Assembly (NCBI GenBank): GCA_964398415.1
Contig: CAYNOM010000001.1
Coordinates: 1-47,551, forward strand
Source: an uncultured Polyangiales bacterium
Lineage (GTDB): Bacteria; Myxococcota_A; Polyangia; Polyangiales; DASUME01
Direction: 5' to 3'
DNA: 47,551 nucleotides
In this document: one piece after another, positions 20,287 to 41,683 of the stretch
Layout: each line of letters opens with the position of its first letter
How positions within the stretch are numbered: the first letter of the stretch is position 1
Made by a program: the position numbers and the translations under genes
The notes under the pieces: model-generated
What the model was told of the DNA's origin: nothing
What the model saw: the letters and a program-made list of their open reading frames with translations, nothing else
Database searches by the model: none

Positions 20287-20319
20287 TTGCGCAGCAAGTG
20301 CGTCTTCGCGCCTGCGCAA
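20287..20319. promoter_or_regulatory. dyad symmetry element TTGCGCA-N19-TGCGCAA in the divergent intergenic region (candidate operator or leader hairpin)
   Basis: Read directly: ttgcgca at 20287-20293 and tgcgcaa at 20313-20319. A second, partly overlapping complementarity pairs gcaagt (20292-20297) with acttgc (20327-20332). Confidence 0.2.
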
Positions 20320-20394
20320 GCGAAAGACTTGCGTCCCCGTCCCCTATCGTCGCCGCGAGCGCGCTGCCCGCGCGCACCGCGTTGGAGAGCTTTC

Positions 20395-26465: not shown

Positions 26466-26755
26466 AGATCTGCCTGGGCGTGTGAACAACTCGGCCGCCG
26501 CACTGTGACCGACTCGCAGACAGGGCGACCTCACCCGTCCGCGAGAATCGCTTGTATCTTCGAGCGACACATCGTGGCACGCAGCGTGCAGTGGCAAGCC
26601 CACGTCGCATGCGCTCACGGGCCTGCATGCGCAGGAGCGAGGGTTGACCGATGTGTGTAGACGTTGCGGAGAACGAGACCTTACCTGGTGGGCCGCCCAA
26701 CACGGCAACGCGAGCGGCCAGGGGGGCGAACAGGCAGCGTGATCGCGTGAACACA

Positions 26756-27706
26756 ATGCTCGCCCTGGGCCTGCTCGCGCTCGGCGGGTGCCAGGACAGC
26801 GTAGGTTTCGCGGTCGACGACGGCGGGGCCATCGACGGCGGGGCCATCGACGGAGAGGCCCCGATCGGCTCAGATGCCGACACCAGCTCGCAGGGCACGG
26901 ACGGCGCAGCATCGGGCGACGGCAGCCCGAGCGGTGGCGACGGCTGTATGCCACCCGACATGCTCCTCGTGCTCGACCGCACGATGAGTATGTCCAAGAC
27001 CCCCGCCGGCCCTTCACCCGAGAACACGACGGAGGGCCGTCGCGCGTCGAAGTGGCACCTCGCGATCGCTGCGTTCGAAACGCTCACGTCGCAGCTCGAC
27101 GGAACGATTCGCTTCGGCCTCGAGCTCTTTCCCAAGGACCCGGGCAAAGACCAATGCCTGACCCTCGCACAACGCATCGAAGGTCAGACCGCCACGAACG
27201 CGAAGTGCCAGGGCGGTGAAGTGTTGGTAGTGCCAGCGCTCGAGACAGGCGATGCCATCGCGAGTGCGCTCGATCCGGAGACAACCCTCTTGTGCACGAG
27301 CACGCCGATCGGAGCGGGCCTGGCCACGGCGCGCGCGGCCCTCTCCGACATCGCGAGTCAGGCGCGCAAGCAGTACGCCGTGCTGCTCACGGATGGCAGG
27401 GACACGTGCGACGAGTCGCTGTCGCTCACGAATGCGCAGAACCTCGTCTCCGACGGCGTTGGCCTGTACGTGATCGGATTCGATGGCTCGGGCAAGGGCG
27501 TCGACAACGGCCACCTCAACGACCTCGCCTGCGCGGGCCACACGGCCAAGGGCTTTCCTGACGCATGCGTGGAAGACGCCGCAGGCAACTTCACCGCGAA
27601 GGATCGCGAGGGCGCCGCGCTGTACATCCTCGCCCAAGATCAGACACAGCTGATCGACGAGCTGAAGAGCGTGGCCGGCCAGGTCTGCTGCAACTGCGTG
27701 ATCTGA
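26756..27706 (+). CDS. von Willebrand factor A (VWA) domain lipoprotein
   Basis: ORF 26651..27706 with the likely start at ATG 26756 (MLALGLLALGGC, lipobox). The MIDAS-like motif is LVLDRTMSMS. Later blocks GLELFP, TPIGAGL and VLLTDGRDTC fit a VWA fold. The C-terminus is Cys-rich (VCCNCVI). Confidence 0.8.
   Translation: MLALGLLALGGCQDSVGFAVDDGGAIDGGAIDGEAPIGSDADTSSQGTDGAASGDGSPSGGDGCMPPDMLLVLDRTMSMSKTPAGPSPENTTEGRRASKWHLAIAAFETLTSQLDGTIRFGLELFPKDPGKDQCLTLAQRIEGQTATNAKCQGGEVLVVPALETGDAIASALDPETTLLCTSTPIGAGLATARAALSDIASQARKQYAVLLTDGRDTCDESLSLTNAQNLVSDGVGLYVIGFDGSGKGVDNGHLNDLACAGHTAKGFPDACVEDAAGNFTAKDREGAALYILAQDQTQLIDELKSVAGQVCCNCVI
26822..26851 (+). repeat. perfect 15-bp tandem duplication (ggcggggccatcgac x2) inside the VWA lipoprotein linker
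   Basis: Read directly: 26822-26836 equals 26837-26851, encoding GGAID-GGAID. A degenerate third copy follows. Confidence 0.9.
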
Positions 27707-27715
27707 GTCAATGAG

Positions 27716-28339
27716 TCAGGTCGCTGTGGGCTCCGCGCGGGCCGCGCGGACGAAGGCCTGCACGAGCACCTGACTCTTCACGCCCGGCGAGCCCTCGACG
27801 CCGCTCGCCGTGTCCACGCAGAAGGGCGACACGGCGCGGATGGCGTCGGCTACGTTTTCGGCCGTCAGGCCGCCCGCCAACGTCAGCTTGCGCTCTGCGG
27901 CCACCTGGCTCGCAACGCTCCAGTCGAAGGTTGCGCCGGTGCCTCCCGGGAGTCCCGGCACGTAGGCGTCGAGCAGGATGTGCTCGCCAGGATAGCGACG
28001 CGCATCCTCCACCGCCGAGCGACCACGCACGCGCAAGGCCTTGTACGCGTGGGGCAAGAGCTGCGCGACCAGGTCGGGAGGCTCGTCGCCGTGCAGCTGC
28101 ACGCAACCTAGGCCGAGCTCTCCGATGTGCCGCCGAATCTCCTCGAGCTCAGCGTCGACGAACACCCCGACGACCAGCACACGGCCTTGCACAGCCTGCG
28201 CGATGGCCTTCGCGGTGTCGAAGGCGCAGGCGCGCACCGAACCTGGCCAGAAATTCAGCCCAAGAGCATCGACGCCGGCCTCGACACACATCAGCGCGTC
28301 TTCGACCGAGGTCAGCCCGCACACCTTCACGCGCGTCAT
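27716..28339 (-). CDS. trpF: phosphoribosylanthranilate isomerase
   Basis: ORF 27716..28351 with the likely start at MTRVKVCGLTSVEDALMCVEAGVDALGLNFWPGS. This is the canonical TrpF N-terminus (KICG...D...GAD..G.F). The protein is about 207 aa. Confidence 0.88.
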   Translation of the reverse strand: MTRVKVCGLTSVEDALMCVEAGVDALGLNFWPGSVRACAFDTAKAIAQAVQGRVLVVGVFVDAELEEIRRHIGELGLGCVQLHGDEPPDLVAQLLPHAYKALRVRGRSAVEDARRYPGEHILLDAYVPGLPGGTGATFDWSVASQVAAERKLTLAGGLTAENVADAIRAVSPFCVDTASGVEGSPGVKSQVLVQAFVRAARAEPTAT

Positions 28340-28389
28340 CCCCAAGACCATAGCAGCGCGCGGTCGGCCTGCCTCGTCGTCGCAGGAGC

Positions 28390-28767
28390 TCAGTCGAGCT
28401 TGAGCAGCTCCTTGACCTTCTCGATCACCTGCGGCGCCTGGATCGGCTTCGTGATGTAGGCATTGGCCCCGAGGGCCAGGGCGCGAGTGCGATCTTCCTG
28501 GGAGCCCTCGGTGGTGATGATGATGATCGGCACATCCTTGTGCGCCTCATCGGTTCGGATCCGCTTCACCAACTTCAGCCCATCCATGATCGGCATGTTG
28601 ATGTCGGTGATGATGATGTCGAACTTGGCTCCAGCCAGTTTGCGCAGGCCATCGACGCCGTCGTCTGCCTCCGTCACCTCGACCTCACGCACACGCTGCA
28701 AAGCGAAGACGAGAAGCTGCCGCATCATGGGCGAGTCTTCGACAACGAGACATCGGTACTGGGCCAT
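28390..28767 (-). CDS. cheY: single-domain response regulator (CheY-like), distal copy
   Basis: 125-aa ORF with VVEDSP, the phospho-acceptor IITDINMPIMDG, IIITTEG and YITKP (conserved Lys). Confidence 0.9.
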   Translation of the reverse strand: MAQYRCLVVEDSPMMRQLLVFALQRVREVEVTEADDGVDGLRKLAGAKFDIIITDINMPIMDGLKLVKRIRTDEAHKDVPIIIITTEGSQEDRTRALALGANAYITKPIQAPQVIEKVKELLKLD

Positions 28768-28773
28768 GTAGCC

Positions 28774-29670
28774 TCACTTCAAACTCTCGCCGAGGCCGGC
28801 GAGAGCGCTGAGTAGGTCTTGTTCTTTCTGATACAGATGCGCCGCGAGCAGCGCGGTCGCGGCATGTGAGCCGAGGAGATGAAACAGCTCCTGGTCGACC
28901 TGGACCCAGGCGTGCTTTTGCTCGAGCAGCTGCACGATGGCGATCACCCCCACGGTTTGGTTGTCGACCAGCATGGGCAACACGGCGAGCGGGCTCTGGA
29001 GCGAGCCCTCGCCGAGCGGATCGCCCTGCTTGACCGACGACACCCCGCTCGCGCACACGCTGCCGATCGCGCCTTGGCCTATCGTGATCGGCACGAGCTC
29101 GCTCTCGATGATGCCCTCGGAGCCCACCGGCATGGCGTGCGTGCCCTCGTCGTTCAGCACGTAGACCGCGAAGCGTTCAGCGCCCACCAACTGCGCGAGC
29201 AGCTCTTTGATGTGCTGCAAGACGTGAGCGGGCTTGAGCGTCGAGTGGAGCTGAAAGCTCGCCACGTACAGATTGGCCAGGTCGTTCAGCTCCTGCTCGA
29301 TGGCCGCATAGCGCCCTTCGTGACGCCGTGAGGCCTGCTCGAGCTGACTCGACTTCTCGAGCAGACTGCGCTTCTCTTGCTCGAGTCGCTCGATGTTGCG
29401 CAGAAAGTCGCGGATCGCGTCGTCGCTCTTCACCTGAGCCCGGAGCGCGGCGTTGTCGGCCTCGAGCATGTTGATGCGGTGCCGCAGCCCGTCGTTCTCG
29501 TGAAGCAGCTCCTCCGTGAACTCGACGCCCTTGCGCAGGAAGTTGCGCACGAAGGCCTCACGCTCACGGGTCAGCTCCCCGGATGAGCTGGGTCTCGGAT
29601 GAATGGTCGGGCTGTCGTCGTCCATTTCGCTCGTGCTCTCGCTCATGTTCCCATGCCCATGCGTGGTCAC
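28774..29670 (-). CDS. coiled-coil plus GAF-domain protein
   Basis: 298-aa ORF. The N-terminal heptad-rich segment reads RHRINMLEADNAALRAQV...IERLEQEKRSLLEKSSQLEQASRR. It is followed by a GAF-like block: LKPAHVLQHIKELLAQLVGAERFAVYVLND...GAIGSV...LAVLPMLVDNQTVGVIAIVQLL. Its start overlaps the cheB stop (ATGA). Confidence 0.7.
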   Translation of the reverse strand: MTTHGHGNMSESTSEMDDDSPTIHPRPSSSGELTREREAFVRNFLRKGVEFTEELLHENDGLRHRINMLEADNAALRAQVKSDDAIRDFLRNIERLEQEKRSLLEKSSQLEQASRRHEGRYAAIEQELNDLANLYVASFQLHSTLKPAHVLQHIKELLAQLVGAERFAVYVLNDEGTHAMPVGSEGIIESELVPITIGQGAIGSVCASGVSSVKQGDPLGEGSLQSPLAVLPMLVDNQTVGVIAIVQLLEQKHAWVQVDQELFHLLGSHAATALLAAHLYQKEQDLLSALAGLGESLK

Positions 29671-30761
29671 ACAATGAGATCTGCAAGATGGGTCGCCAGT
29701 GCACCGAGGGGCAGACTGCGATCGACCTCACCCGTGCGGACCGCTGCGCCCGGCATGCCGTAGATCACGGCCGTTTCGGGCGCTTCGGCGTACACCGTCC
29801 CGCCATGCGCCTTGATCGCGACCACACCGCGCGCACCGTCGTCGCCCATGCCCGTGAGCACGACGCCGATCACGCGCTCGGCCGCCACCTCGGCTGCGCT
29901 CTTGAAGAGTCGATCGACTGAAGGGATGAAGCGATCGCCTGGCGCAGGATCCACCACGCTCGCCGCAAAGCCGTTTCCGAACGTGACGATCTCGAGGCAC
30001 TTGCCGCCAGGACACAACACGGCCTTGCCCGGCGTGAGTGGCTCGAACTCGCGCGCCTCACTGACCTTGAGCCCTCCGAGCTTGTGCAAGCGCTCGGCGA
30101 AGGTTCGCGTGAAGCGCTCGGGCATGTGCTGCGCCACCACCACCGCCGCATTGGAGGCGGGCTTGAAGTGGGAGAACACCTCGACGAGCGCGCTCGGTCC
30201 GCCCGTCGAAGCGCCGATCACCACCAGCTTGTTCACCGCTTGATCACGCTCGACCACGACCGGCGGCGCGGGCGCGGGCATGGCCGTCGCCGGTTGGCTG
30301 AAGACGCCGGTCAAGGGGCCTCCAGCGCGCACGACGCGGCGCTTTGGATCTCGGCCCGCCGGGGTGAGCTGGCGGACCATCGACACCTTCTCTCCGAGCT
30401 CCTGCTCGATGGCGGACAGGTCGCTCGCGATGGTGCGCGTCGGCTTGGCGATGAAGTCGATGGCTCCGAGCTCGAGCGCGCGAAAAACGTTCTCTCGAGC
30501 AGAGTTGCCGCTGACGACGATCACCGGCGTGGGCTGGCGTGCCATCAACAGGCGCAGGAAGGTGAAGCCATCCATGCGCGGCATTTCGAGGTCCAAGGTG
30601 ATCAGATCGGGCGTCAACGAGGCCGCGAGCTTCAGCGCTTCGTCGCCATCGGCGGCTTTGCCGACGACCTCGACCCCGTCGATGTTCATCAACAGGTCTC
30701 CAATCGTGCGTCGATTGAAGGCTGAATCGTCTACGACCATCACGCGCAACTTGGCGGTCAT
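29667..30761 (-). CDS. cheB: chemotaxis response regulator protein-glutamate methylesterase
   Basis: 364-aa ORF. The receiver domain has VMVVDDS and LITLDLEMPRMDG. The CheB catalytic domain has VVIGASTGGPSAL, VVAQHMP..FT..FA.RL and LTGMGDDGA. Confidence 0.93.
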   Translation of the reverse strand: MTAKLRVMVVDDSAFNRRTIGDLLMNIDGVEVVGKAADGDEALKLAASLTPDLITLDLEMPRMDGFTFLRLLMARQPTPVIVVSGNSARENVFRALELGAIDFIAKPTRTIASDLSAIEQELGEKVSMVRQLTPAGRDPKRRVVRAGGPLTGVFSQPATAMPAPAPPVVVERDQAVNKLVVIGASTGGPSALVEVFSHFKPASNAAVVVAQHMPERFTRTFAERLHKLGGLKVSEAREFEPLTPGKAVLCPGGKCLEIVTFGNGFAASVVDPAPGDRFIPSVDRLFKSAAEVAAERVIGVVLTGMGDDGARGVVAIKAHGGTVYAEAPETAVIYGMPGAAVRTGEVDRSLPLGALATHLADLIV

Positions 30762-31642
30762 CGAGTCTCTCCCTTTCCTAGAGGAGGCTTTGCGGGAGTC
30801 GGTGGCTTTCGGTATGCGAGATCGGATGAGAGATGCATGAGCTCGAATGCGGTTGACACGTTGAGGAGTGACTCGCTGTGCCCGAGGAACAGATACCCTT
30901 CGGGCTGCAGGCGCTCGTAGAAGCCCTCGATCACTTTACGCCGTGACGCGGTGTCGAAGTAGATCAGTACGTTACGGCAGAAGATCGCTTCTACCATCCC
31001 GATCACGCTGTAGCGTGCCGCATCGAGCAGGTTGAGGTGCGCAAAGTTGCACATGGCGCGAATGTCCGCGCGCACCGTGCGCCCCTCCGAAGTCTCCACG
31101 AAGTACTCCGCATACTGCTCGGGCATGCTGCGAAAGCTTGACGGACCGTAGGTCGCCCGGCGCGCCACCTGCAGCACGCGACGCGAGATGTCGTTGCCGA
31201 TCACGCGTACATCCCAGCCCTCGAACATACCCGATTCGCGGATCAGAATGGCGAGCGTGTAGACCTCCTCGCCCGTCGAGCAGCCAGCGCTCCAGATCGA
31301 GAGCCTGCGCATCCGACGACCACGCTCGTAGAGCATCGGCAGCACCTCACGCTGAAACGCGCGTAGCTGGTACTCCTCGCGAAACAGGTAGGTCTCGTTG
31401 GTGGTGAGCACATCTACCGCGCGCTCGATCTCCGCCTTGGCATCCGGGTGATAGCGCAGGTAGTGGTAGTACTCGCCGAAGTCGGCGATATCGAGATCTT
31501 GCAGGCGTTCCTTGAGCTTGCGTTCGAGCACGAACTGCATGTCGTCCGGAAAGCGAATGCCGCAGAAGTCGTTGACCAAGTCCCGCAGGAGGCGAAACTC
31601 CTCCGGCTTGATCTTCGGGCCCGTATCGAAGAGCAAGGGCAC
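30758..31642 (-). CDS. cheR: chemotaxis protein-glutamate O-methyltransferase
   Basis: 294-aa ORF with TTNETYLFRE, RLSIWSAGCSTGEEVYTLAIL, VIGNDIS, FCRNVLIYFD and LFLGHSES. Confidence 0.93.
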   Translation of the reverse strand: MPLLFDTGPKIKPEEFRLLRDLVNDFCGIRFPDDMQFVLERKLKERLQDLDIADFGEYYHYLRYHPDAKAEIERAVDVLTTNETYLFREEYQLRAFQREVLPMLYERGRRMRRLSIWSAGCSTGEEVYTLAILIRESGMFEGWDVRVIGNDISRRVLQVARRATYGPSSFRSMPEQYAEYFVETSEGRTVRADIRAMCNFAHLNLLDAARYSVIGMVEAIFCRNVLIYFDTASRRKVIEGFYERLQPEGYLFLGHSESLLNVSTAFELMHLSSDLAYRKPPTPAKPPLGKGETR

Positions 31643-31643
31643 C

Positions 31644-33695
31644 TTAGGCCTCCTCTCCGAGGGCTCTGAGAGCCTGAATGAAGGCCACGCGCGCGAGATC
31701 GTCCGACTCGTGCTCGAGCTGCGATTTCAGCGCCGGCACGGCATTCACCACGCCGAGGTCGCCTATCAGCTCGGCCGACATCTGGCGCACATCCCACGCC
31801 GCGTGGGAGAGCGCGGCGATGAGCTTCTCGGGCGCCGCCGGATCGTGACTGTCCGAGAGGGCCTTGAGCGCGGCCTTCACGACCTCGCGATCGGCGTGGT
31901 GCAGCGCGTCTTCGAGGATGCCCGCGAGCTCGCCGGGGCTCAGCGCCCCGAGCGCCTCCACCGCCGCCATGGCCGCGCCCGTATCCTCGGAGCGTAAGAG
32001 CTCCTGCAATGGCTCCACCGCACGCGTGGAGCCGGTGTAGCCGAGGGCCCGGGCGGCCGCCTGACGGATCTGGGGTAGCTCCGAGCCGAGCGCGAGAATG
32101 AGCTCTGCGGCGCCCGGCGCATCGCCGGCCTCGTCGCGAATGTGCCCGAGCACCTGGGTCGCGACCACTTGCACCGTGGGGTCCTCGTCGGCGAGGGCGA
32201 GCGCGACGAGCTCCGCGGCACGCCGCCCTCCGACGCGCCCGAGCCCGTGCAGCGCCGCCCGGCGCACGTCCGCGTCGTCGCCGGACAGAAGCCCCTGCAA
32301 ACGGTCGAGCGCACGGGGCCCACCGAGCGCGGCGACCACCGGAGCCAAAGCGCCACTCTGCGGCCCCGACAGCGTCGCACCGGAGAGGGCCTTCTCGACC
32401 GCATCGGGCGCACGTCGCACGAGGGCCTCGAGGGCCGTGGCACAGGCGCGGGCGACGGCAGGATCGGCCGAGAGCGCATGTCCGACCAAGAGCGCTGCAT
32501 CGGCATCGTCTGCCCAGTGCGCGAGACAGCGCGCCGCGGCCGCCACGATCGGGTGCTCGCGATCGGACAGACTGCGCCGCAAGGTGCTGCGCACGCGCTC
32601 GCGCACCGCAGGCTCGATGCCCTCCGCGACGAGCGCGAGATCGGCAGTGAGCTCGAGCGCCACCGCCCGCTCCTGCACGCTCGAGAGCGTCGGCAAGAGG
32701 GCCAGCATCGGCGCCACCGCGTCGCGTCCCCAGGCCCGGAGCGCAGCCAGAGTCTGGGGCGAAGGCGCCTCGCTCGTCAGATGCGCGACGAGCGCCGACA
32801 GCGACTCGGAATCGCGAGCCCAAGCGAGCAGCTCTGCGGCCGAGCGGCGCGCCTCCGCATCACCACTGCCCGTGAGCACCGCACGCAGCCAGGCCCGAGC
32901 GCGGTCGTCGAGCAAGGCAAGCCGTGGCGCCGCCGCCTTGGCGATCTGAGGCGAGCCACCGCTGAGGCGCGCGATGGCGATGGCCGCCGCGCCCACCACG
33001 TGCACGGTCGACTCCTCGAGCGCAGAAAACAGGGGCTCGAGGGCTTCGATGCGCCCCGTACGGCCCAGGGCCGAGATGGCCACACGGCGCAGCAGGCGAT
33101 CGGTCAAGAGCGGCTCGAGCTCCTCCCAGGGGATCACGGCGTGCAAACGATTGAGCGCGTCGAGAGCCGCCATGCGCAGGAACGGATCGCTGGCGCCGAG
33201 CCTCGAGCGCATGATCCGCTCGGCTTCGGGCCCCCCGATGCGCGCCAGGGCTTCGATGGCTTCACCGGCCACGTTCGGGTCCTCGGACGCCGCAGCCTTC
33301 GCGAGCTCGCGCACGACCTGATGCCCGCCCGACTCGCCCAGCGCTTCGACCACGAACTTGCGCGCGTGCTCAGGCACGTTGGGCAGCGCTGCGATCAGCG
33401 CCGGTGCAGCGTTCGGTCCGAGGGACTCGAGCACGTCGAGCGCGGCGTTGCGCAGGCCCACGTTCTCGCCCTGACAGATCGACTGCACGAGCGCCTCGAT
33501 CAGAGACAGCTCGACCGCCCGCTTCGTCGCGACCTGCACGGCTTCCTTGCGCACGCGCCAGTCATCGTCGCCCAAGGCCTCGAGGATCAAGGGCCCCACC
33601 GCTTCGTCCACCTCGGTGGCAGCGTGCAGAACGCCACGCCGGCGCGTCTCCGCGTCCGGATCCAAGAGAGCCTGCTTCAAGCGCTCGACGCTCAT
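31644..33695 (-). CDS. HEAT-repeat (PBS-lyase-type) protein, about 683 aa
   Basis: ORF 31644..33950. I placed the start at ATG 33695 (MSVERLKQALLDPDAETRRRG), which forms an ATGA overlap with the cheW stop. The upstream extension is Arg-rich. Repeats of the type D..VR..A..ALG recur along the whole length, for example GDDDWRVRKEAVQ, SEDPNVAGEAIEALARIG, SGDDADVRRAALHGLGRVG, ELPQIRQAAARALGYTG and HAAWDVRQMSAELIGDLG. Confidence 0.8.
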   Translation of the reverse strand: MSVERLKQALLDPDAETRRRGVLHAATEVDEAVGPLILEALGDDDWRVRKEAVQVATKRAVELSLIEALVQSICQGENVGLRNAALDVLESLGPNAAPALIAALPNVPEHARKFVVEALGESGGHQVVRELAKAAASEDPNVAGEAIEALARIGGPEAERIMRSRLGASDPFLRMAALDALNRLHAVIPWEELEPLLTDRLLRRVAISALGRTGRIEALEPLFSALEESTVHVVGAAAIAIARLSGGSPQIAKAAAPRLALLDDRARAWLRAVLTGSGDAEARRSAAELLAWARDSESLSALVAHLTSEAPSPQTLAALRAWGRDAVAPMLALLPTLSSVQERAVALELTADLALVAEGIEPAVRERVRSTLRRSLSDREHPIVAAAARCLAHWADDADAALLVGHALSADPAVARACATALEALVRRAPDAVEKALSGATLSGPQSGALAPVVAALGGPRALDRLQGLLSGDDADVRRAALHGLGRVGGRRAAELVALALADEDPTVQVVATQVLGHIRDEAGDAPGAAELILALGSELPQIRQAAARALGYTGSTRAVEPLQELLRSEDTGAAMAAVEALGALSPGELAGILEDALHHADREVVKAALKALSDSHDPAAPEKLIAALSHAAWDVRQMSAELIGDLGVVNAVPALKSQLEHESDDLARVAFIQALRALGEEA

Positions 33696-34207
33696 TTTCC
33701 CCCCGTGAGCATCGGTGGAATGGTGCTCGTGTCGATTTCGTCGGCGGCCGACGCGACGACCTGAGGATCGACGACGAACACGAGGCTGCCCTCGTGCGAA
33801 TAGACGTTGGCGATCCCGCGACGCTCCGCACCGGAGCCGATCTCGGGCAGGTTGCGTTGCTCTCTGTGGCCAGCCCCAAACACGTCGGTCACGGCGTCCA
33901 CCACGAGCGCAACCGGCTGCGCACGATGGGGCAGGCGCACGATGATCCACTTGGTGCGGCGCGTCGCCTCCGTGCGCGGGAGCCCGAAGCGACAGCGTAG
34001 ATCGACCACGGGCAAGACGTCTCCACGATGGTCTGCGACGCCAAGCACCTCGGTGGGCGCGTGGGGCAAGGTGACCGTCGGCAGTGGATTGACGATCTCA
34101 CGCACGATGTGAATCTCGACGGCATAGCGCACCTCTCCCACGAGGAAGCTCACCAGATTCTTCGCCTGGTCCGAACGGTAACGCGTGGTGGCATCGTGCT
34201 CGGTCAT
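33692..34207 (-). CDS. cheW: CheW-like coupling protein (second copy)
   Basis: 171-aa ORF with LVSFLVGEVRYAVEIHIVREIV..P.VT.LP.AP..VLGVADHRGDVLPVVDLR...IIV...VALVVDAVTDV, a CheW domain pattern. Confidence 0.88.
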   Translation of the reverse strand: MTEHDATTRYRSDQAKNLVSFLVGEVRYAVEIHIVREIVNPLPTVTLPHAPTEVLGVADHRGDVLPVVDLRCRFGLPRTEATRRTKWIIVRLPHRAQPVALVVDAVTDVFGAGHREQRNLPEIGSGAERRGIANVYSHEGSLVFVVDPQVVASAADEIDTSTIPPMLTGGK

Positions 34208-34752
34208 CGTTGCAGCAAAGGCTCGGCGTTGAGCAGGATGAGGATGTCGTTCGGGTCATCGCGGTCTTGGCTCGAAGAGCGACCGAGGGTACGCACGGCA
34301 CGCGGGCGACCGATGCCCAGGACGTACTCGTTCATCTCGCCCCCCACGGCGGATGCGAGCTCGACCTCGTCTTCGTAGAGCCGGTAAACCTGCAGCACCG
34401 AATCCACGAGCATACCGAGGATCTCGTCTCCTGCGTCGACGAGAAGCACGCGTGTGTTTTTGTCCATCGGGGCTTCGACGAGGCGCAGACGCCGGCGCAG
34501 ATCCAGCACCGTCGTAACGCGCCCGCGCACCGACACGATGCCGAGCACCTCGTAGGGCGAGCGCGGCACCTGCGTGATTCGCGGCGGCTTCAGGATCTCC
34601 TGCACGCCCGCGAGCGGCAGGGCGTAGGTCTCACCGCCCAGCTTGAAGGCCAAGAACTCGTAGATCGCGCCGTCCGCGCCGGTCAGACGCTGGTTGCCCT
34701 TGCTGTCGCCCTGCATCACGCCTGGCACGAGGCTCGGCACGAGCATGCTCAT
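34204..34752 (-). CDS. cheW: CheW-like coupling protein (first copy)
   Basis: ORF 34204..35049. The start at ATG 34752 (MSMLVPSL) forms an ATGA overlap with the cheA stop. The CheW pattern is YEFLAFKLGGETYALPLAGVQEIL...VLGIVSVRGRVTTVLDLRRRL...VLLVDAGDEILGMLVDSVLQV. Confidence 0.88.
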   Translation of the reverse strand: MSMLVPSLVPGVMQGDSKGNQRLTGADGAIYEFLAFKLGGETYALPLAGVQEILKPPRITQVPRSPYEVLGIVSVRGRVTTVLDLRRRLRLVEAPMDKNTRVLLVDAGDEILGMLVDSVLQVYRLYEDEVELASAVGGEMNEYVLGIGRPRAVRTLGRSSSQDRDDPNDILILLNAEPLLQR

Positions 34753-36884
34753 GACATGACCTCCATCATGCGTGCGCGGTCGGAGCCGGCCAGCATCTCC
34801 TCGAGGATCTGCGGCGTATCGAGCACCAAGGTCACGGCCTGGTCGCCGAGATCCGTGGCGCCAGCGAAGCCGCGCACCCCAGCCACACTCTGCCCCAGCG
34901 ACTTGATGACGATGTCCTGCTGGCCGAGCAGGAGATCGACGACCATGCCGAGCCGCCGCGCACCGAGCTGACTGACGACCACGAACTGCCGTGTCGACCT
35001 CTCGTGCCCGGGCGGCTCTTCGAGCCGAAACAGATCGCGGATACGGCACAGCGGCAGCGTGCCACCGCGCAGCGTCATCACCTCGCGCCCTTCGACCGTG
35101 CGAATGGCCTTCGGATCGAGCATCAACGCTTCCTGCACATTGGCGAGCGGGATCGCGTAGGTGTGCCCCGACACGCGCACGACGAGCGCGCTGATGATCG
35201 CCAACGTGATCGGCAGCGTGATGATGAAGGTCGTGCCCTTGCCCACCTCGCTGCGCAGGTCGACGACGCCCCCGAGCTTACCGATGTTCGTCTTGACCAC
35301 GTCCATGCCCACGCCGCGGCCCGACAGATCGGTCACCTGCTCGGTGGTACTGAAGCCCGGCATGAAGATCATGTTGAGGATGTCTTCGCGGCTGAGCTCG
35401 TCTCGCTCCTTTTCGGAGATCAGACCTCGGGAGATGGCCTTGTCGACGATGCGCTGCGGATCGATGCCCGCGCCGTCGTCCTTCACCTCGATCAAGACGT
35501 GATTGCCCTTCTGGTAGGCGTACAGCGCCAGAAAGCCGATGGGATTTTTGCCGCGTTCTTTGCGCTTGTCAGGGGCCTCGATGCCGTGATCGATGGCGTT
35601 TCGGATCAGGTGCATGAGTGGATCACTCAGCTCCTCGACGATCAGCTTGTCGACCTCCGTCTCCGAGCCCTTCACCTCGAGGCGGATCTCCTTTTTCGCA
35701 TCGCGAGCAGCCTGCCGCACCACGCGCGCGAGCTTGTCGAACACCTGCCCGAGCGGCACCATGCGCACGTCGAGGATGCCATCCTGCAGCTCGGCGAGGT
35801 TGCGCTCGAAGCCGCGCGCGATGCGGTGCAGCTCGGTCGACAGCGTGCGAAGCTCGGGCCGATCGCGCAGGCGCTCGGTGATCTGAGCGACGGCACCGCG
35901 TACGATCGCGAGCTCTCCCACCACGTTCATCAGGTGGTCGAGCTTCTGGATGTTGACGCGCACCGTGTTCGCGACCGAACGCAGAGACAGCGCATCGGCG
36001 CCCACCTTGTCCATCACCTGCGGCGGCACCGTGGGCGGCGGGGCGGCCGTGAGATCGGGCGCACCCTTGTCCCCAATCGCAGGCTCGGGGGCGACCTGGG
36101 GAACGACCGTATCGATGCGTTGCGCACCGCGGCGCGGCACCGGCTGTAGCACCGCGTCGTCGCTACACAGGATCTCCTTGAGCTGTAGCGGATCGGCCCG
36201 ACTCGCGAGCAGCACCTCGAGCTCGATCAGATCGTCGCTGCCGCCTCCCATGCTCGGCAGGTACGTGATGAGCTCGGCCACGGGGCGGGCTCGCGCCTTG
36301 AGATCCTCGAGCGCGGTGTCGATGGACGCGAGCGCGAAGCTCACGCTCAGTCGGTAGAGCTGCACGCCTTGCGCAATGTTCGTGCGCAGCCGGTGCTCCT
36401 CGTACTCGGTCAGGACCGAGAGCACGTTCTCGCCGAGCTCGTACTCCGAGAGGACGTCGCGTTCTTCGGGCGCCTCGGCCACCCGATCGACGCTGTCTGC
36501 GAAGTCCGAGACGTCGACGTCGTCGGCATCGTCTCCGCTCGATGCGAGGATGCGCTGGATGCGCTCCACGCCGTCGAACAAGACGTCGAGGGTGTCCTGC
36601 GTGATGTCGACGCGACCCAGGCGCAGGTCGTCGAGCAGGTTCTCGAGCGAGTGGGCCAGGTTCGACAGGCTCGTCATGCCGAACATGCCCGCGAGGCCCT
36701 TGAGCGTGTGCACCGCGCGGAAGATGTCGTTGAGCAGATCGGGGTCGTTGCGTCCCTCCTTCTGACTCTGCTCGAGCAGAAGCAAGTCGCGGGATAGCGT
36801 CTCGACGATCTCCTGCGCCTCCGACAGGAACTCCTCGCGAACGCTGTCGTTCTCGTCCCCGGCCACTAGGCTAAACCCCCCCAA
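34749..36884 (-). CDS. cheA: chemotaxis histidine kinase CheA (P1-P5, no C-terminal receiver)
   Basis: 711-aa ORF. P1/Hpt reads IFRAVHTLKGLAGMFG and the dimerisation domain reads VRVNIQKLDHLMNVVGELAI. The kinase boxes are N LIRNAIDHGIE, G1 DDGAGID, F FMPGFST and G2 GRGVGMDVV. The P5 CheW-like region reads LVVRVSGHTYAIPLANVQE. The start must be non-ATG: TTG 36884 or GTG 36866. Confidence 0.93.
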   Translation of the reverse strand: MGGFSLVAGDENDSVREEFLSEAQEIVETLSRDLLLLEQSQKEGRNDPDLLNDIFRAVHTLKGLAGMFGMTSLSNLAHSLENLLDDLRLGRVDITQDTLDVLFDGVERIQRILASSGDDADDVDVSDFADSVDRVAEAPEERDVLSEYELGENVLSVLTEYEEHRLRTNIAQGVQLYRLSVSFALASIDTALEDLKARARPVAELITYLPSMGGGSDDLIELEVLLASRADPLQLKEILCSDDAVLQPVPRRGAQRIDTVVPQVAPEPAIGDKGAPDLTAAPPPTVPPQVMDKVGADALSLRSVANTVRVNIQKLDHLMNVVGELAIVRGAVAQITERLRDRPELRTLSTELHRIARGFERNLAELQDGILDVRMVPLGQVFDKLARVVRQAARDAKKEIRLEVKGSETEVDKLIVEELSDPLMHLIRNAIDHGIEAPDKRKERGKNPIGFLALYAYQKGNHVLIEVKDDGAGIDPQRIVDKAISRGLISEKERDELSREDILNMIFMPGFSTTEQVTDLSGRGVGMDVVKTNIGKLGGVVDLRSEVGKGTTFIITLPITLAIISALVVRVSGHTYAIPLANVQEALMLDPKAIRTVEGREVMTLRGGTLPLCRIRDLFRLEEPPGHERSTRQFVVVSQLGARRLGMVVDLLLGQQDIVIKSLGQSVAGVRGFAGATDLGDQAVTLVLDTPQILEEMLAGSDRARMMEVMS

Positions 36885-36913
36885 AAAACGCGCGCCACAA
36901 GGCGTGCCTCAGA

Positions 36914-37306
36914 TCACTCGTTGCCGTCGCTCCGCGCCTCGGACTGCCCCACCAAACGTTTCGCCGTCTCGCGCAGCTCCTCGGGCAGAAAGGGCTTCGT
37001 GAGATAGGCATTGGCCCCGAGCGCCATGCCCCGCTCCCGATCTCTCTGCGCGCCCTCGGTGCTCACGATGATCACGGGCGTCGTCTTGTGCTGCGCCGTC
37101 TTGCGCATGAACGAGATCAACTCGAGCCCGTGGATGTCCGGCATGTTGATGTCGGTCACCACCAGATCGTACTGCTCACGGGGCAGCAGTCTGAGCGCCT
37201 CGAAGCCGTTGCCGGCCTCCGTCACCTCCGCTAGGCCGCCCTCCTCGAGAGTGGCCCGAACGAACGTGCGCATGGCCGGAGAGTCTTCGACGACGAGCAC
37301 TCGCAT
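36914..37306 (-). CDS. cheY: single-domain response regulator (CheY-like), proximal copy
   Basis: ORF 36914..37393 with the likely start at MRVLVVEDSPAMR (ATG 37306). GGAGG lies upstream. It has VVTDINMPDIHG, IIVSTEG and YLTKP. Confidence 0.9.
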   Translation of the reverse strand: MRVLVVEDSPAMRTFVRATLEEGGLAEVTEAGNGFEALRLLPREQYDLVVTDINMPDIHGLELISFMRKTAQHKTTPVIIVSTEGAQRDRERGMALGANAYLTKPFLPEELRETAKRLVGQSEARSDGNE

Positions 37307-37458: not shown

Positions 37459-38208
37459 TCAACCGCTGAACAGCCGACTCGATAGCTCCTCTTTGACGTG
37501 GGCCGCAACGAAGGCGGCCACCGCCGCGCGGGCCTGCTTGAGCTCGGCTTCGGGCCAGGGCTCCTGGGCGGCGCTGAGCCAGTCAGCAGACAGCGCCGAG
37601 AGCATTCGGGCGCGGGCTCTGGCGCTGAGCAGAAAGGGGCCCCCGCCAAAACGCCGCGACACGACGGCCCCGAGCGCGGGGTCGAAGTAGGCCGCCTTGC
37701 CCTCGGGCACCACATCCCCCGACCTGCCACAGCGCGCGAGCTGGGGCGACAGCCCCGACAGGGCGAGCACGCGCAGCGCGAAAGCCAGAAGGCGCGACCT
37801 GTCCGGATCGCCGGCGAGCTCGAGCAGGGTCAGAAACTGCACCGCGTTGACGAACATCGGGGCGTCGGGCGCCCGCCCCGGATGGGCCTCGCGAAGCAGC
37901 GAAAGGGCCGCACCGGCGACGTCCATCTTCTCGAAGCTGCCCAGGATGCCCGGAAACACCCGGTCGATTTCGGCGCGCTTGAGGGTAAACAGCTCCGTAC
38001 GCGTGGCCTCGAGCTCGACGCGGATCACCGCATAGGGCTCGAGCGCGCCCGCAAAGCGACGCTTGCTCTCGCGGGCCCCACGCGCGACGGCGGAGACCTT
38101 GCCGAGATGCTGGGTGAAGAGCGTCAGGATGCGGTCGGTGTCGCGGTAGTCGGTGGCACGCAGGACGAGCGCATCGGTGACCTGCGAGCGCGAGACCGTG
38201 CCGCTCAC
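37459..38208 (-). CDS. recO: DNA repair protein RecO
   Basis: 249-aa ORF with ALVLRATDYRDTDRILTLFTQHLGKVSAVARGARESKRRFAGALEPY, the RecO OB-fold N-terminus. The GTG start overlaps the upstream stop (GTGA). Confidence 0.85.
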   Translation of the reverse strand: MSGTVSRSQVTDALVLRATDYRDTDRILTLFTQHLGKVSAVARGARESKRRFAGALEPYAVIRVELEATRTELFTLKRAEIDRVFPGILGSFEKMDVAGAALSLLREAHPGRAPDAPMFVNAVQFLTLLELAGDPDRSRLLAFALRVLALSGLSPQLARCGRSGDVVPEGKAAYFDPALGAVVSRRFGGGPFLLSARARARMLSALSADWLSAAQEPWPEAELKQARAAVAAFVAAHVKEELSSRLFSG

Positions 38209-38660
38209 ACGCGTTGGGTGGCGTCGACGAGGCGGTCGTTCATCGAGCCGGCCGACGCGCGCACCGACAGCTCGAGCGGCGCATCGCGATGCCGCGGCCG
38301 AAGCACGATCGACAGGGCCAACGTGAACAGAATCACCAGAATGACGAGCGCGATGGCGATCCCGAAGCGACGACCTCGCTCAGGCGCCTGAATGGACGAC
38401 AAGAGCGGCGCAGGCGACGGTGCCTCCACCTTGCGCCCCTCGCCGTAGCGCTCGAGGACCTGCTCGGCGCTCAGGCCGAGAGCCCGCGCATAAGAGCGCA
38501 GAAAGCCACGCGCGAACACTTCGCCTGGCAGCTCCTCGAATCGATCGTCTTCGATCCGCTGCAGCATGCGCAGGGGGATGCGCGTGGTCTGAACGAGCTC
38601 TTCGAGAGAGACGTGACGCAGCTCTCGCTCACGGCGAAGATATGCACCAATCGAGTCCAT
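38205..38660 (-). CDS. RodZ-like helix-turn-helix membrane protein
   Basis: ORF 38205..38702 with the likely start at MDSIGAYLRRERELRHVSLEELVQTTRIPLRMLQRIEDDRFEELPGEVFARGFLRSYARALGL, a RodZ-type HTH. One TM helix follows (FGIAIALVILVILFTLALSIVL). Confidence 0.7.
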   Translation of the reverse strand: MDSIGAYLRRERELRHVSLEELVQTTRIPLRMLQRIEDDRFEELPGEVFARGFLRSYARALGLSAEQVLERYGEGRKVEAPSPAPLLSSIQAPERGRRFGIAIALVILVILFTLALSIVLRPRHRDAPLELSVRASAGSMNDRLVDATQRV

Positions 38661-38671
38661 GGCGTGCTCCT

Positions 38672-39472: not shown

Positions 39473-39616
39473 CAAACGCTGTATTCCCTCGCTCAACAGC
39501 CGACAGCCCCGTGATTTACCGGCTTCGACTGTGTCCGTCAATACGAACCGGGCGACCCACCCGGAGCGCACCCTAGCCCTGTCGGTACACCGACACTTGG
39601 CCACAACATTCTGTTT

Positions 39617-41610: not shown

Positions 41611-41683
41611 GGACCCAGAACCTACCATCTCACAGACCAGGCCGAGGTCGCCGAACGCAGCGGGCCTGCGTCATCGCACGTCG

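What the first reader, a model, noticed from the sequence alone, without database searches (positions are those of the whole stretch)
28390..37306. Complete chemosensory operon (CheA, 2 CheW, CheR, CheB, 2 CheY) that encodes no MCP
**Seen in sequence.** Nine contiguous minus-strand genes run cheY-cheA-cheW-cheW-HEAT-cheR-cheB-GAF/coiled-coil-cheY. The flanking genes are housekeeping (recO upstream, trpF downstream). None of the translated ORFs in any frame over 28.4-37.4 kb shows the highly conserved MCP signalling-hairpin sequence.

**Established knowledge.** CheR and CheB are known to act on glutamates of MCPs, and CheA/CheW arrays are nucleated by MCP trimers. The Myxococcus xanthus Che7 cluster also contains a HEAT-repeat protein (Cpc7) linked to CheY7, but that cluster carries its own soluble MCP.

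**Inference.** There are two possibilities. The module may borrow receptors encoded elsewhere. Alternatively, the HEAT-repeat and/or coiled-coil GAF proteins may replace the receptor as scaffold, input or methylation substrate, which would be a new kind of Che pathway.
Basis: partly seen in the sequence, partly recalled or inferred. Interest (0 to 1): 0.75.

Follow-up and report, generated by a model that had tools for sequence, protein, structure and literature searches.

The report
Receptor-less Che8-type chemosensory operon
This is a real nine-gene chemosensory operon with no receptor gene, but it belongs to an already described operon type (Myxococcus Che8, Geobacter beta-group/Esn) that most likely uses receptors encoded elsewhere, so it is not a new kind of pathway.

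Summary
Nine translationally coupled minus-strand genes (cheY-cheA-cheW-cheW-HEAT-cheR-cheB-coiled-coil/GAF-cheY, 28390-37306) lie between recO and trpF. No MCP signalling domain occurs in any frame of the 47.5 kb window.

The striking interpretation does not hold.
- **Conservation:** the same receptor-less order is kept in 80 Polyangia loci, in other Myxococcota including Anaeromyxobacteraceae, and in a Geobacter-type locus. There every window protein, HEAT and GAF included, best-hits the gene in the same position.
- **Literature:** this type is already described as M. xanthus Che8 (no Mcp8) and as the Geobacter "beta-group" clusters ("no mcp genes"). In G. sulfurreducens its CheA and CheW pair with an orphan GAF-MCP, EsnA.
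- **Receptors alongside HEAT:** two distant members (L090, L088) carry MCP genes inside the cluster, next to HEAT-cheR-cheB and, in L088, the GAF gene. So HEAT and GAF coexist with receptors and do not replace them.
- **Enzymes and substrates:** CheR and CheB catalytic residues are invariant. HEAT and GAF have no methylation-site consensus.

Best reading: an alternative-function Che pathway fed by receptors encoded elsewhere. The HEAT solenoid and the GAF protein are conserved accessory or output parts whose roles are still unknown. It is a new member of a known kind, of modest interest.

The parts
36914..37306 (-). cheY (first response regulator, 130 aa)
   Evidence: Response_reg E 4e-30. The start was set at MRVLVVEDS. 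57% identical to the REC gene in the same position of the Geobacter-type locus L084.
34749..36884 (-). cheA (P1 Hpt, P3 dimerisation, P4 HATPase, P5 CheW-like; no P2 hit, no REC)
   Evidence: Pfam. Relatives are 49-76% identical in 80 Polyangia loci, 44% in L084 and 41% in L090. M. xanthus CheA8 has the same domain architecture.
34204..34752 (-). cheW-1 (182 aa)
   Evidence: CheW E 4e-30. ATGA overlap with the cheA stop. Keeps the E. coli CheW R62-G63 and V-x-E-I positions.
33692..34207 (-). cheW-2 (171 aa)
   Evidence: CheW E 8e-26. Keeps R62-G63. Best-hits the second CheW of L084 and L082.
31644..33695 (-). HEAT-repeat solenoid protein (683 aa)
   Evidence: - Domains: HEAT_2 E 5e-57, and no other domain.
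- Start: ATG overlaps the cheW-2 stop.
- Structure: AlphaFold2 gives an all-alpha solenoid of 42 helices, pLDDT 94. The nearest folds are SF3B1, karyopherin-beta2, CAND1 and the PP2A A subunit.
- Family: members are full-length and colinear, about 660-716 aa, down to 30% identity.
- Context: every member whose surroundings could be read sits directly upstream of cheR-cheB. L089 was too short to show this.
30758..31642 (-). cheR methyltransferase (294 aa)
   Evidence: CheR_N+CheR. Aligns to P. aeruginosa CheR1 and Salmonella CheR. The catalytic Arg, the SAM loop, the Asp and the RNVLIY motif are invariant or nearly so in 63 orthologues.
29667..30761 (-). cheB methylesterase with receiver domain (364 aa)
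   Evidence: REC+CheB_methylest. Aligns to Salmonella CheB 1A2O. The phospho-Asp, Ser and His are invariant in 60 orthologues, and the catalytic Asp is kept in 59 of them.
28774..29670 (-). long-helix (coiled-coil) + GAF protein (about 290 aa)
   Evidence: - Domains: GAF_3, GAF_2 and GAF at residues 147-274.
- Structure: AlphaFold2 gives a single 112-residue helix (22-133) followed by a GAF fold, pLDDT 84. The nearest folds are cyclic-nucleotide-type GAF domains.
- Family: stand-alone, about 285 aa, with no fusions among the best 120 hits.
- Orthologues: 40% identical over 262 aa to the gene after cheB in L084, and 40% over 261 aa to the one in L091.
28390..28767 (-). cheY (second response regulator, 125 aa)
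   Evidence: Response_reg E 7e-30. 60% identical to the terminal REC gene of L084 and L091.

Best explanation
**What it is.** This is the Polyangiales version of the Che8 / 'beta-group' / Esn type of chemosensory operon. That type is an alternative-cellular-function Che pathway conserved in Myxococcota and in Geobacter-type bacteria, where it never carries its own receptor gene.

**How it most likely works.**
- Input: one or more MCPs encoded elsewhere in the genome assemble with the two CheWs and CheA. This step is inferred.
- Signalling: CheA phosphorylates the two CheYs and the receiver domain of CheB. This follows from the domain content.
- Adaptation: CheR and CheB methylate and demethylate those distant receptors. 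This is inferred from their intact catalytic sites.
- Accessory parts: the HEAT solenoid and the coiled-coil GAF protein are conserved members of this pathway type, not receptor substitutes.
- HEAT role: most likely a protein-binding scaffold that is the partner or target of a CheY-like regulator. This is inferred from gene adjacency and from the Che7/Cpc7 and haloarchaeal precedents.
- GAF role: probably adds a small-molecule input or output link. This is an inference.
- Output: probably not motility. Extracellular matrix or biofilm control, or a stress response, is more likely, by analogy with Geobacter and M. xanthus.
For: **Gene content and coupling.**

**Conservation of the receptor-less order.**
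- The cheY-cheA-cheW-cheW-HEAT-cheR-cheB order recurs in the loci whose contigs extend far enough. These are the best 80 of 497 relatives, all labelled Polyangia or unclassified delta-proteobacteria, 1.43 Mb in total.
- None has an MCP, even at E<1.

**The same cluster at 30% HEAT identity.**
- L081 and L082. L082 even keeps the oligopeptide-ABC/TPR/RodZ/recO ... trpF flanks.
- L083 and an Anaeromyxobacteraceae-labelled locus, L086.
- L091.
- A Geobacter-type locus, L084: PatA_N-REC, REC, CheA, AAA ATPase, CheW, REC, CheW, Zn-ribbon-REC, HEAT, CheR, CheB, GAF, REC, then a multihaem cytochrome.
- Every window protein best-hits the gene in the same position of L084: 57, 44, 37, 39, 30, 49, 48, 40 and 60% identity, in gene order.

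**Literature.**
- PMC3945109: M. xanthus che8 is MXAN_4759 cheY8b, 4758 cheA8, 4757 and 4756 cheW, two unlisted genes, 4753 cheR8, 4752 cheB8 and 4751 cheY8a, with no Mcp. Orphan McpB and McpJ, plus Mcp7, are linked to Che7/Che8.
[quoted passage not shown] They occur in Geobacter, Stigmatella, Anaeromyxobacter, Plesiocystis and M. xanthus. A knockout of G. sulfurreducens cluster 5 affects extracellular matrix, which the authors report as unpublished.
- PMC2330069: che8 is conserved in Anaeromyxobacter and G. sulfurreducens.
- PMC5585712: GSU2222 CheA, GSU2221 ATPase and GSU2220 CheW share a phenotype and a two-hybrid interaction with the orphan GAF-MCP EsnA, GSU1704.
- PMC6194562: Sorangiineae and Nannocystineae genomes encode 2-5 MCPs.

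**HEAT and GAF coexist with receptors.**
- L090 reads ...CheW, CheW, MCP, MCP, REC, HEAT, CheR, CheB.
- L088 reads MCP, MCP, REC, HEAT, CheR, CheB, GAF.

**Enzymes and couplers look functional.**
- CheB and CheR catalytic residues are invariant or nearly so across about 60 orthologues.
- Both CheWs and the P5 domain keep E. coli CheW R62-G63.

**HEAT as a partner of a REC protein.**
- A REC-domain gene lies immediately upstream of HEAT, touching or overlapping it, in L083, L084, L088, L090 and L091.
- The HEAT fold matches protein-binding scaffolds.
- A haloarchaeal HEAT_PBS protein acts downstream of CheY (PMC2666748).
Against: - No receptor for this particular operon was identified. I could not scan the source genome, and the window's own contig is not in the look-up collection.
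- Orthology to M. xanthus Che8 rests on published gene order, domain tables and published synteny statements. I could not retrieve the MXAN_4751-4759 sequences, and I do not know what MXAN_4754 and 4755 encode.
- L084 is an unnamed metagenome contig. Its identification with the GSU2212-2224 cluster rests on the CheA-ATPase-CheW order and the neighbouring multihaem cytochrome.
- The roles proposed for HEAT and GAF are inferred from adjacency and analogy, not from any assay.
- Sorangiineae-type genomes have very few MCPs, so one receptor might have to serve several Che systems.
Confidence: 0.72

Rival explanations
1. The HEAT solenoid, with or without the coiled-coil GAF protein, replaces the MCP. 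It would nucleate the CheW/CheA complex and/or serve as the substrate of CheR and CheB, making this a receptor-independent Che pathway.
For: - No MCP was found in the window or in 87 related loci from Myxococcota and Geobacter-type organisms.
- Where the surroundings could be read, HEAT is present and sits between the cheW and cheR genes, where L090 has its MCP genes.
- The GAF protein has a 112-residue helix that could form a coiled coil.
- Sorangiineae-type genomes have only 2-5 MCPs.
Against: - In L090 and L088 the same HEAT-cheR-cheB module, plus GAF in L088, lies next to canonical HAMP-MCPsignal genes. HEAT and GAF therefore coexist with receptors.
- The methylation consensus [ASTG][ASTG]xx[EQ][EQ]xx[ASTG][ASTG] has 0 matches in either protein, and a looser 8-residue form also has 0.
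- The GAF helix is modelled as a single helix, not an antiparallel hairpin, and has no similarity to the MCP signalling domain.
- In Geobacter the orthologous CheA and CheW bind an orphan MCP.
- The GAF gene is missing from most Polyangiaceae loci while cheR and cheB stay intact.
Confidence: 0.08
2. The HEAT protein is an adaptation scaffold. It docks CheR and CheB onto distant receptors that lack a C-terminal pentapeptide tether. That would explain why HEAT-cheR-cheB is the constant triad of the family. Receptors are still needed.
For: - HEAT is directly followed by cheR-cheB in every locus with readable context, with or without in-cluster MCPs.
- In the window the HEAT stop codon (31644-31646) and the cheR start (31642) are separated by a single base.
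- PMC2577667 places CheRs from mcp-less or 40H/44H clusters in a pentapeptide-independent group.
- The solenoid fold is typical of multi-partner scaffolds such as the PP2A A subunit and CAND1.
Against: - There is no direct evidence. Adjacency alone cannot separate this idea from the CheY-partner idea.
- A REC gene, not cheR, is the neighbour most tightly coupled to HEAT on its upstream side in five lineages.
- Published HEAT precedents in Che systems (Cpc7, haloarchaeal OE2401F) act on the CheY or output side.
Confidence: 0.15
3. The operon recently lost its MCP gene by deletion in this genome, and is therefore a degenerate or decaying cluster.
For: Distant members of the family do have MCP genes at the cheW|HEAT junction (L090).
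Against: - The receptor-less order is shared by all 80 Polyangia loci, other Myxococcota, Anaeromyxobacteraceae and the Geobacter-type loci. Any loss is therefore ancient and stable.
- All nine genes are intact and translationally coupled, and catalytic residues are invariant or nearly so in orthologues.
- cheW-2 and HEAT overlap by ATGA, leaving no scar.
Confidence: 0.02

Closest known systems
Myxococcus xanthus Che8 cluster (MXAN_4751-4759; Zusman 2007 scheme as tabulated by Moine et al. 2014, PMC3945109)
   Same: - The order is the same: cheY-cheA-cheW-cheW-(two genes)-cheR-cheB-cheY.
- No MCP is listed for che8.
- CheA8 has Hpt, dimerisation, HATPase and CheW domains with no receiver, like the window CheA.
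- Protein sizes are similar: CheW 174 and 188 aa against 171 and 182; CheR 290 against 294; CheB 345 against 364; CheY 124-126 against 125-130.
   Different: - CheA8 is longer (862 aa against 711).
- M. xanthus has two unnamed genes where the window has one HEAT gene, and I could not see what they are.
- M. xanthus has no gene between cheB8 and cheY8a, whereas the window has the GAF gene there.
Geobacter 'beta-group' che cluster (G. sulfurreducens cluster 5; Esn network, GSU2220 EsnB CheW / GSU2222 EsnC CheA with orphan MCP EsnA GSU1704; PMC2577667, PMC5585712)
   Same: [quoted passage not shown]
- The Geobacter-type locus L084 has all nine window genes in the same order, including HEAT, GAF and the terminal cheY, at 30-60% identity.
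   Different: - The Geobacter-type cluster has extra genes: a PatA_N-REC protein, an AAA ATPase between cheA and cheW, a REC between the two cheW genes, and a Zn-ribbon-REC before HEAT.
- The window lacks all of these.
- The window lies in a recO/trpF housekeeping context rather than next to a multihaem cytochrome.
Myxococcus xanthus Che7 cluster with the HEAT-repeat protein Cpc7 (Darnell et al. 2014; cited in PMC9040617 and PMC6194562)
   Same: It is a Che pathway with alternative function that contains a HEAT-repeat protein functionally tied to the pathway. It falls in the same phylogenetic group as Che8 (Group 1: Dif, Che7, Che8).
   Different: - Che7 has one CheW and its own soluble Mcp7.
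- From my own knowledge, it also has a desaturase gene, and its HEAT gene lies after cheB.
- The window has two CheWs, no MCP and no desaturase, and its HEAT gene lies between cheW and cheR.
- I could not read the Darnell paper.
Haloarchaeal HEAT_PBS protein OE2401F in che/fla regions (PMC2666748)
   Same: It is a protein made only of HEAT repeats, encoded in a che gene region and needed for pathway output. It interacts with CheD and the CheY-binding CheF.
   Different: It is archaeal, it links to the archaellum, no homology beyond the repeat type is shown, and its gene context is different.

Membership tests
Che8 / beta-group / Esn-type chemosensory cluster | Gene content and order: cheY-cheA-cheW-cheW-...-cheR-cheB-...-cheY. 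| tested here: met
   Pfam. The same order is tabulated for MXAN_4759-4751 and is seen in L081-L084, L086 and L091.
Che8 / beta-group / Esn-type chemosensory cluster | No mcp gene inside the cluster. | tested here: met
   No MCPsignal hit in six frames of the window or in L001-L080. The method has a positive control. The literature describes the same absence.
Che8 / beta-group / Esn-type chemosensory cluster | CheA without a fused receiver domain (P1-P3-P4-P5). | tested here: met
   compared with the CheA8 row of Table 2 in PMC3945109.
Che8 / beta-group / Esn-type chemosensory cluster | Position-by-position sequence orthology to a Geobacter-type cluster that has the CheA-ATPase-CheW signature of GSU2222-2220. 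| tested here: met
   Each window protein best-hits the gene in the same position of L084. The comparison ran in one direction only, and L084 is an unnamed metagenome contig.
Che8 / beta-group / Esn-type chemosensory cluster | Sequence orthology to M. xanthus MXAN_4751-4759 itself. | not testable with these tools
   The M. xanthus sequences could not be retrieved. The link rests on published gene order and on published synteny of che8 with the Anaeromyxobacter and Geobacter clusters, plus an Anaeromyxobacteraceae-labelled member of the HEAT family in such a cluster.
Che8 / beta-group / Esn-type chemosensory cluster | Signalling through an MCP encoded elsewhere. | not testable with these tools
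   This is shown for Geobacter EsnA and predicted for M. xanthus McpB and McpJ. The source genome could not be scanned.
Canonical MCP-CheW-CheA chemotaxis core with CheR/CheB adaptation | Catalytically competent CheR and CheB. | tested here: met
   Alignments to 1A2O and 5XLY. The key residues are invariant or nearly so in about 60 orthologues.
Canonical MCP-CheW-CheA chemotaxis core with CheR/CheB adaptation | CheW and P5 keep conserved positions that I know to be linked to receptor binding in E. coli CheW (R62-G63, V36-x-E38-I39). | tested here: met
The residue roles are from my own knowledge, not from a tool.
Canonical MCP-CheW-CheA chemotaxis core with CheR/CheB adaptation | Receptor (MCP) encoded with the pathway genes. 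| tested here: not met
   It is met only in the distant members L088 and L090.
M. xanthus Che7-type cluster (Cpc7) | Own soluble MCP in the cluster, a single CheW, and the HEAT gene after cheB. | tested here: not met
   The window has no MCP and two CheWs, and its HEAT gene lies between cheW and cheR. The Che7 composition is and from my own knowledge.
Methyl-accepting substrate (HEAT or GAF protein as a CheR/CheB target) | Presence of the methylation-site consensus [ASTG][ASTG]xx[EQ][EQ]xx[ASTG][ASTG]. | tested here: not met
   There are 0 strict and 0 loose matches in either protein. The shuffle expectation is 0.05-1.1.

The most novel reading that the evidence does not exclude
The 683-aa HEAT solenoid may be a stoichiometric structural component that defines this class of chemosensory array. 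One version is a docking platform that brings the pentapeptide-independent CheR and CheB, and/or a CheY-like regulator, to receptors encoded elsewhere. The more extreme version is an alternative scaffold or methyl-acceptor that lets CheA signal without an MCP in Myxococcota. Either version would add a new core part to the Che toolkit. It would also explain why HEAT-cheR-cheB is the constant triad of the family, both where MCP genes sit in the cluster and where they do not.
Probability: 0.15. Interest if true: 0.65.

Novelty: new member of a known kind. Interest (0 to 1): 0.3.

Why it matters
**For the finding itself.** It matters little. A receptor-less che operon of this exact layout has been in the literature since 2007-2008, and a distant receptor for its Geobacter counterpart was identified in 2017.

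**What this analysis adds.**
- The M. xanthus Che8, Geobacter beta-group/Esn and Polyangia clusters look like one family. The tie to Che8 rests on published gene order and synteny. The ties to the Geobacter-type and Polyangia loci rest on sequence.
- The core of that family includes a conserved HEAT solenoid of about 680 aa and often a coiled-coil GAF protein.
- Distant members keep MCP genes in the cluster. This argues that HEAT and GAF are accessories, not receptor substitutes.

**What remains open.** The function of the HEAT protein is untested, as is the output of Che8-type pathways. M. xanthus authors still call the function of Che8 unidentified. Both questions could be addressed in tractable organisms such as M. 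xanthus and G. sulfurreducens.

Tried and rejected
**Literature that could not be read.**
- Sharma et al. 2018 (J Bacteriol, myxobacterial chemosensory systems) and Darnell et al. 2014 (Che7/Cpc7) are not held.
- Searches for MXAN_4754/4755 and GSU2212-2218 annotations found nothing useful.
- The supplementary figure of Tran 2008 showing beta-group gene maps is held only as an image placeholder.

**Attempts to reach M. xanthus Che8 sequences.**
- The genome scan returned only the best 80 loci, all Polyangia-like.
- Cluster look-ups of ten distant HEAT representatives gave almost no organism names.
- A profile search from three distant HEAT proteins reached Anaeromyxobacteraceae but no named Myxococcus.

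**Attempts to extend the window.** Both edge proteins were 'not on record'. No receptor census of the source genome was therefore possible.

**Hairpin-tip motif scan.**
- Strict regular expressions for the MCP hairpin tip found nothing in 1.59 Mb.
- They also miss the genuine MCPs of L088, so I discard that result as evidence.
- The phmmer search is the valid test.

**Uninformative searches.**
- A PDB sequence search with the GAF family profile gave only weak generic GAF and designed coiled-coil hits, which say nothing about the ligand.
- Promoter and terminator scans were uninformative in this high-GC DNA.

**Ideas rejected.**
- The long helix of the GAF protein is not a degenerate MCP signalling hairpin. 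It has no similarity to Tsr and is modelled as a single helix, not a hairpin.
- The long plus-strand ORFs inside the HEAT gene (for example 32142-33764) are not genes. They are mirror ORFs of a 72% GC, Ala/Arg/Leu-rich repeat gene.

Full report
**1. The observation**

- Pfam assigns the minus-strand ORFs between 28390 and 37393 as follows:
  - a receiver (CheY);
  - CheA (Hpt, H-kinase_dim, HATPase_c, CheW);
  - two CheWs;
  - a protein made only of HEAT repeats;
  - CheR (CheR_N+CheR);
  - CheB (REC+methylesterase);
  - a protein with a C-terminal GAF domain;
  - a second receiver.
- Reading the ORFs gives likely starts that make neighbouring genes touch or overlap:
  - cheA stop / cheW-1 start, ATGA;
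  - cheW-2 stop / HEAT start, ATGA;
  - cheB stop / GAF start, GTGA;
  - cheW-1/cheW-2 and cheR/cheB overlap by four bases;
  - the HEAT stop codon and the cheR start are separated by one base.
- No terminator-like site lies inside.
- The flanks are trpF (27716-28351) and recO (37459-38208), followed by RodZ-like, Tgl-like TPR and oligopeptide-ABC genes.
- No frame of the whole 47.5 kb window resembles an MCP signalling domain. The best phmmer E-value with the Tsr signalling domain, filters off, is 0.16.
- That test has a positive control. The same query finds all four MCP genes in two distant related loci at E 1e-15 to 1e-23.

**2. Conservation**

*Polyangia relatives*
- A scan of one genome per species with CheA found 497 relatives.
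- The best 80 are all MAGs labelled Polyangiales, Sandaracinaceae, Polyangiaceae, Sorangium, Labilithrix or unclassified delta-proteobacteria. They are 49-76% identical.
- Wherever the contig extends far enough, the order cheY-cheA-cheW-cheW-HEAT-cheR-cheB recurs.
- The GAF gene and second cheY, together with the recO/trpF flanks, are kept in the closer subset.
- No MCP is present within 10 kb either side in any of these 1.43 Mb, even at E<1.
- A recent deletion in this genome is therefore excluded.

*The HEAT family*
- The HEAT protein defines a large family of very constant length: 675-690 aa among close relatives.
- More than 100 cluster representatives at 50% identity align end to end with it, at 660-716 aa and down to 30% identity.

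*Gene contexts of distant members*
- L081 and L082 have the same eight-gene core. L082 even has the same oligopeptide-ABC/TPR/RodZ/recO ... trpF-trpB-trpA surroundings.
- L083, a JGI contig and the Anaeromyxobacteraceae-labelled L086 have the core next to the riboflavin/nusB genes.
- L091 has the full set including GAF and the terminal cheY.
- L084/L085 read PatA_N-REC, REC, CheA, AAA ATPase, CheW, REC, CheW, Zn-ribbon-REC, HEAT, CheR, CheB, GAF, REC, followed by a multihaem cytochrome.
- Every window protein has its best L084 match in the gene at the same position: 57, 44, 37, 39, 30, 49, 48, 40 and 60% identity, in gene order.
- The GAF protein and second CheY are therefore old parts of the cluster, not a local addition.

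**3. What the literature already says**

*M. xanthus Che8*
- Moine et al. list che8 as MXAN_4759 cheY8b, 4758 cheA8, 4757 cheW8b, 4756 cheW8a, 4753 cheR8, 4752 cheB8 and 4751 cheY8a.
- No MCP is assigned to che8. CheA8 has the same four domains and no receiver.
- Their phylogeny links Mcp7 and the orphans McpB and McpJ to Che7/Che8.

*Geobacter beta-group clusters*
- They found it in Geobacter, Stigmatella, Anaeromyxobacter, Plesiocystis and M. xanthus.
- They reported, as unpublished, that knockouts of G. sulfurreducens cluster 5 alter extracellular matrix.
- The Anaeromyxobacter genome paper states that che8 is conserved in Anaeromyxobacter and G. sulfurreducens.

*The Esn network*
- Chan et al. 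found that GSU2220 (CheW), GSU2221 (ATPase) and GSU2222 (CheA) are needed for electrode colonisation. That gene order is the one seen in L084.
- So is GSU1704 (EsnA), a GAF-sensor MCP encoded elsewhere.
- EsnA interacts with that CheW and CheA in a two-hybrid assay.

*Other points*
- In M. xanthus, CheA8 and CheA7 are reported to phosphorylate the orphan regulator MXAN_4468. The function of Che8 is otherwise called unidentified.
- Sorangiineae and Nannocystineae genomes are reported to encode 2-5 MCPs each, so receptors do exist in such genomes.

**4. Do HEAT or GAF replace the receptor?**

The decisive evidence comes from two distant, lower-GC members of the HEAT family.
- L090 reads PatA_N, REC, CheA, AAA ATPase, hemerythrin, CheW, CheW, MCP (684 aa), MCP (710 aa), REC, HEAT, CheR, CheB.
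- L088 reads MCP (partial), MCP (711 aa), REC, HEAT, CheR, CheB, then the start of a coiled-coil GAF protein. That protein carries the same ANLYVASxQLHSTL motif as the window protein.
- The L090 proteins are homologous to the window proteins: CheY 52%, CheA 41%, CheW 37%, HEAT 27% over 699 aa, CheR 50%, CheB 42%.
- So the HEAT protein, and in L088 the GAF protein, sit side by side with ordinary HAMP-MCPsignal receptors in the same kind of cluster.
- This is hard to reconcile with HEAT or GAF standing in for the receptor.

Further points against replacement:
- Neither protein has the methylation-site consensus. There are 0 strict and 0 loose matches.
- The GAF protein's N-terminal 112 residues are modelled as one long helix, not an MCP-like hairpin.
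- The HEAT protein is a plain 42-helix solenoid (pLDDT 94). Its nearest folds are multi-partner scaffolds: SF3B1, karyopherin-beta2, CAND1 and the PP2A A subunit.

Points for a conventional receptor-dependent core:
- In CheB, the phospho-Asp, Ser and His are invariant in 60 orthologues, and the catalytic Asp is kept in 59 of them.
- In CheR, the Arg, the SAM loop, the Asp and the RNVLIY motif are invariant or nearly so in 63 orthologues.
- Both CheWs and CheA-P5 keep the Arg-Gly and V-x-E-I positions of E. coli CheW.
- That these positions matter for receptor coupling is my own knowledge, not a tool result.

**5. Mechanism, with its status**

*Shown*
- It is a nine-gene operon, orthologous to Geobacter-type and other Myxococcota clusters.
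- It has no receptor gene.
- Its enzymes are intact.
- HEAT and GAF coexist with MCPs in relatives.

*Inferred*
- One or more MCPs encoded elsewhere nucleate the CheW/CheA complex.
- CheA phosphorylates the two CheYs and CheB.
- CheR and CheB adapt the distant receptor.

*Role of HEAT*

I favour a binding platform for a CheY-like regulator on the output side.
- A REC-domain gene lies immediately upstream of HEAT, touching or overlapping it, in five lineages: L083, L084, L088, L090 and L091.
- HEAT-repeat proteins act with or after CheY in M. xanthus Che7 (as cited) and in Halobacterium.
- A rival reading comes from the constant HEAT-cheR-cheB triad and the pentapeptide-independent type of CheR. 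In it, HEAT docks the adaptation enzymes.

*Role of GAF*
- The GAF domain resembles cyclic-nucleotide-type GAFs only at fold level. Its ligand is unknown.
- In several Polyangiaceae loci the GAF and cheY genes are absent, and a REC-GAF-PAS-PAS-HisKA kinase follows cheB instead.
- This suggests that a receiver-GAF link is a recurring downstream element.

*Output*

It is probably not motility control. The nearest studied systems affect matrix, biofilm or electrode colonisation or chaperone gene regulation.

**6. Comparison and novelty**

- What it works like: a Che8 / beta-group / Esn pathway.
- Membership features that were tested and met:
  - gene order;
  - absence of an mcp;
  - CheA architecture;
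  - position-by-position homology to a Geobacter-type locus.
- Membership features that could not be tested:
  - direct sequence orthology to the M. xanthus genes;
  - the identity of the distant receptor.
- It is not a Che7-type cluster.
- It is therefore a new member, from an uncultured Polyangiales bacterium, of a known kind.
- The finding as framed ('a new kind of Che pathway') is not supported.

**7. Limits**

The Tsr probe is validated by the L088/L090 control.
- L084 is an unnamed metagenome contig.
- The source genome could not be searched for receptors.
- My strict hairpin-motif regular expressions miss real MCPs and should be ignored.

Noticed in passing
L090 5446-9613; L088 3-3072: Distant lower-GC members of the same HEAT-cheR-cheB cluster family carry two tandem MCP genes inside the cluster. 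L090 MCP2 and the complete L088 MCP have two CXXCH haem-binding motifs in their N-terminal sensor region, and L090 also has a hemerythrin gene between the ATPase and cheW. This suggests redox or oxygen sensing.
   Followed up: partly
L083 9263-10000; L084 9076-9987; L088 3253-4092; L090 9610-10029; L091 9124-9999: In five lineages a REC-domain protein (139-303 aa, sometimes with a zinc ribbon) is encoded immediately upstream of the HEAT gene, touching or overlapping it. The window and the Polyangia loci lack this gene. It hints that HEAT pairs with a receiver protein.
   Followed up: partly
L084 6491-7288; L086 7519-8343; L090 3110-3937: An AAA_22-type ATPase gene sits between cheA and the first cheW in the Geobacter-type, Anaeromyxobacteraceae and L090 clusters. 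It matches the 'GSU2221 ATPase' that scored in the Geobacter Tn-Seq screen. It is absent from the window.
   Followed up: no
L041 18489-20561; L043 14094-16421; L073 17950-20730: In several Polyangiaceae loci the stand-alone GAF and second cheY genes are missing. A REC-GAF-PAS-PAS-HisKA hybrid kinase gene lies downstream of cheB instead. In L083 a GAF-PAS histidine kinase lies next to cheB on the opposite strand.
   Followed up: partly
window 37459-41628 and 27716-28351, compared with L082 1681-6298 and 18487-21093: The neighbourhood of two oligopeptide-ABC ATPases, a TPR protein, a RodZ-like HTH protein and recO, then the che cluster, then trpF, is kept in a relative whose HEAT protein is only 30% identical. 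In L082 trpB and trpA follow trpF. The cluster has evidently stayed at this chromosomal position for a long time.
   Followed up: partly
window 31414-33764 (for example + strand ORF 32142-33764, 540 aa; - strand ORF 31414-32823, 469 aa): Very long alternative-frame and antisense ORFs overlap the HEAT gene, and GC peaks at 71.7% at 32-34 kb. They are by-products of an Ala/Arg/Leu-rich repeat gene in high-GC DNA, not genes.
   Followed up: yes
window 42490-44382 (-): One 630-aa ORF joins a homocysteine S-methyltransferase domain (E 6e-70) to a methylenetetrahydrofolate reductase domain (E 7e-27).
   Followed up: no
window 38672-39604 (-) and 26651-27706 (+): A TPR lipoprotein resembles the social-motility protein Tgl (E 3e-26, below the curated cut-off). 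A VWA-domain protein gives a faint CglB (gliding motility) hit. Both fit a Myxococcota origin for the window.
   Followed up: no
window 15870-17426 (+), 20287-21789 (+), 44430-45704 (-): Three long ORFs (518, 500 and 424 aa) overlap stretches with coding-like GC3 but have no Pfam family at E<=1e-5.
   Followed up: no
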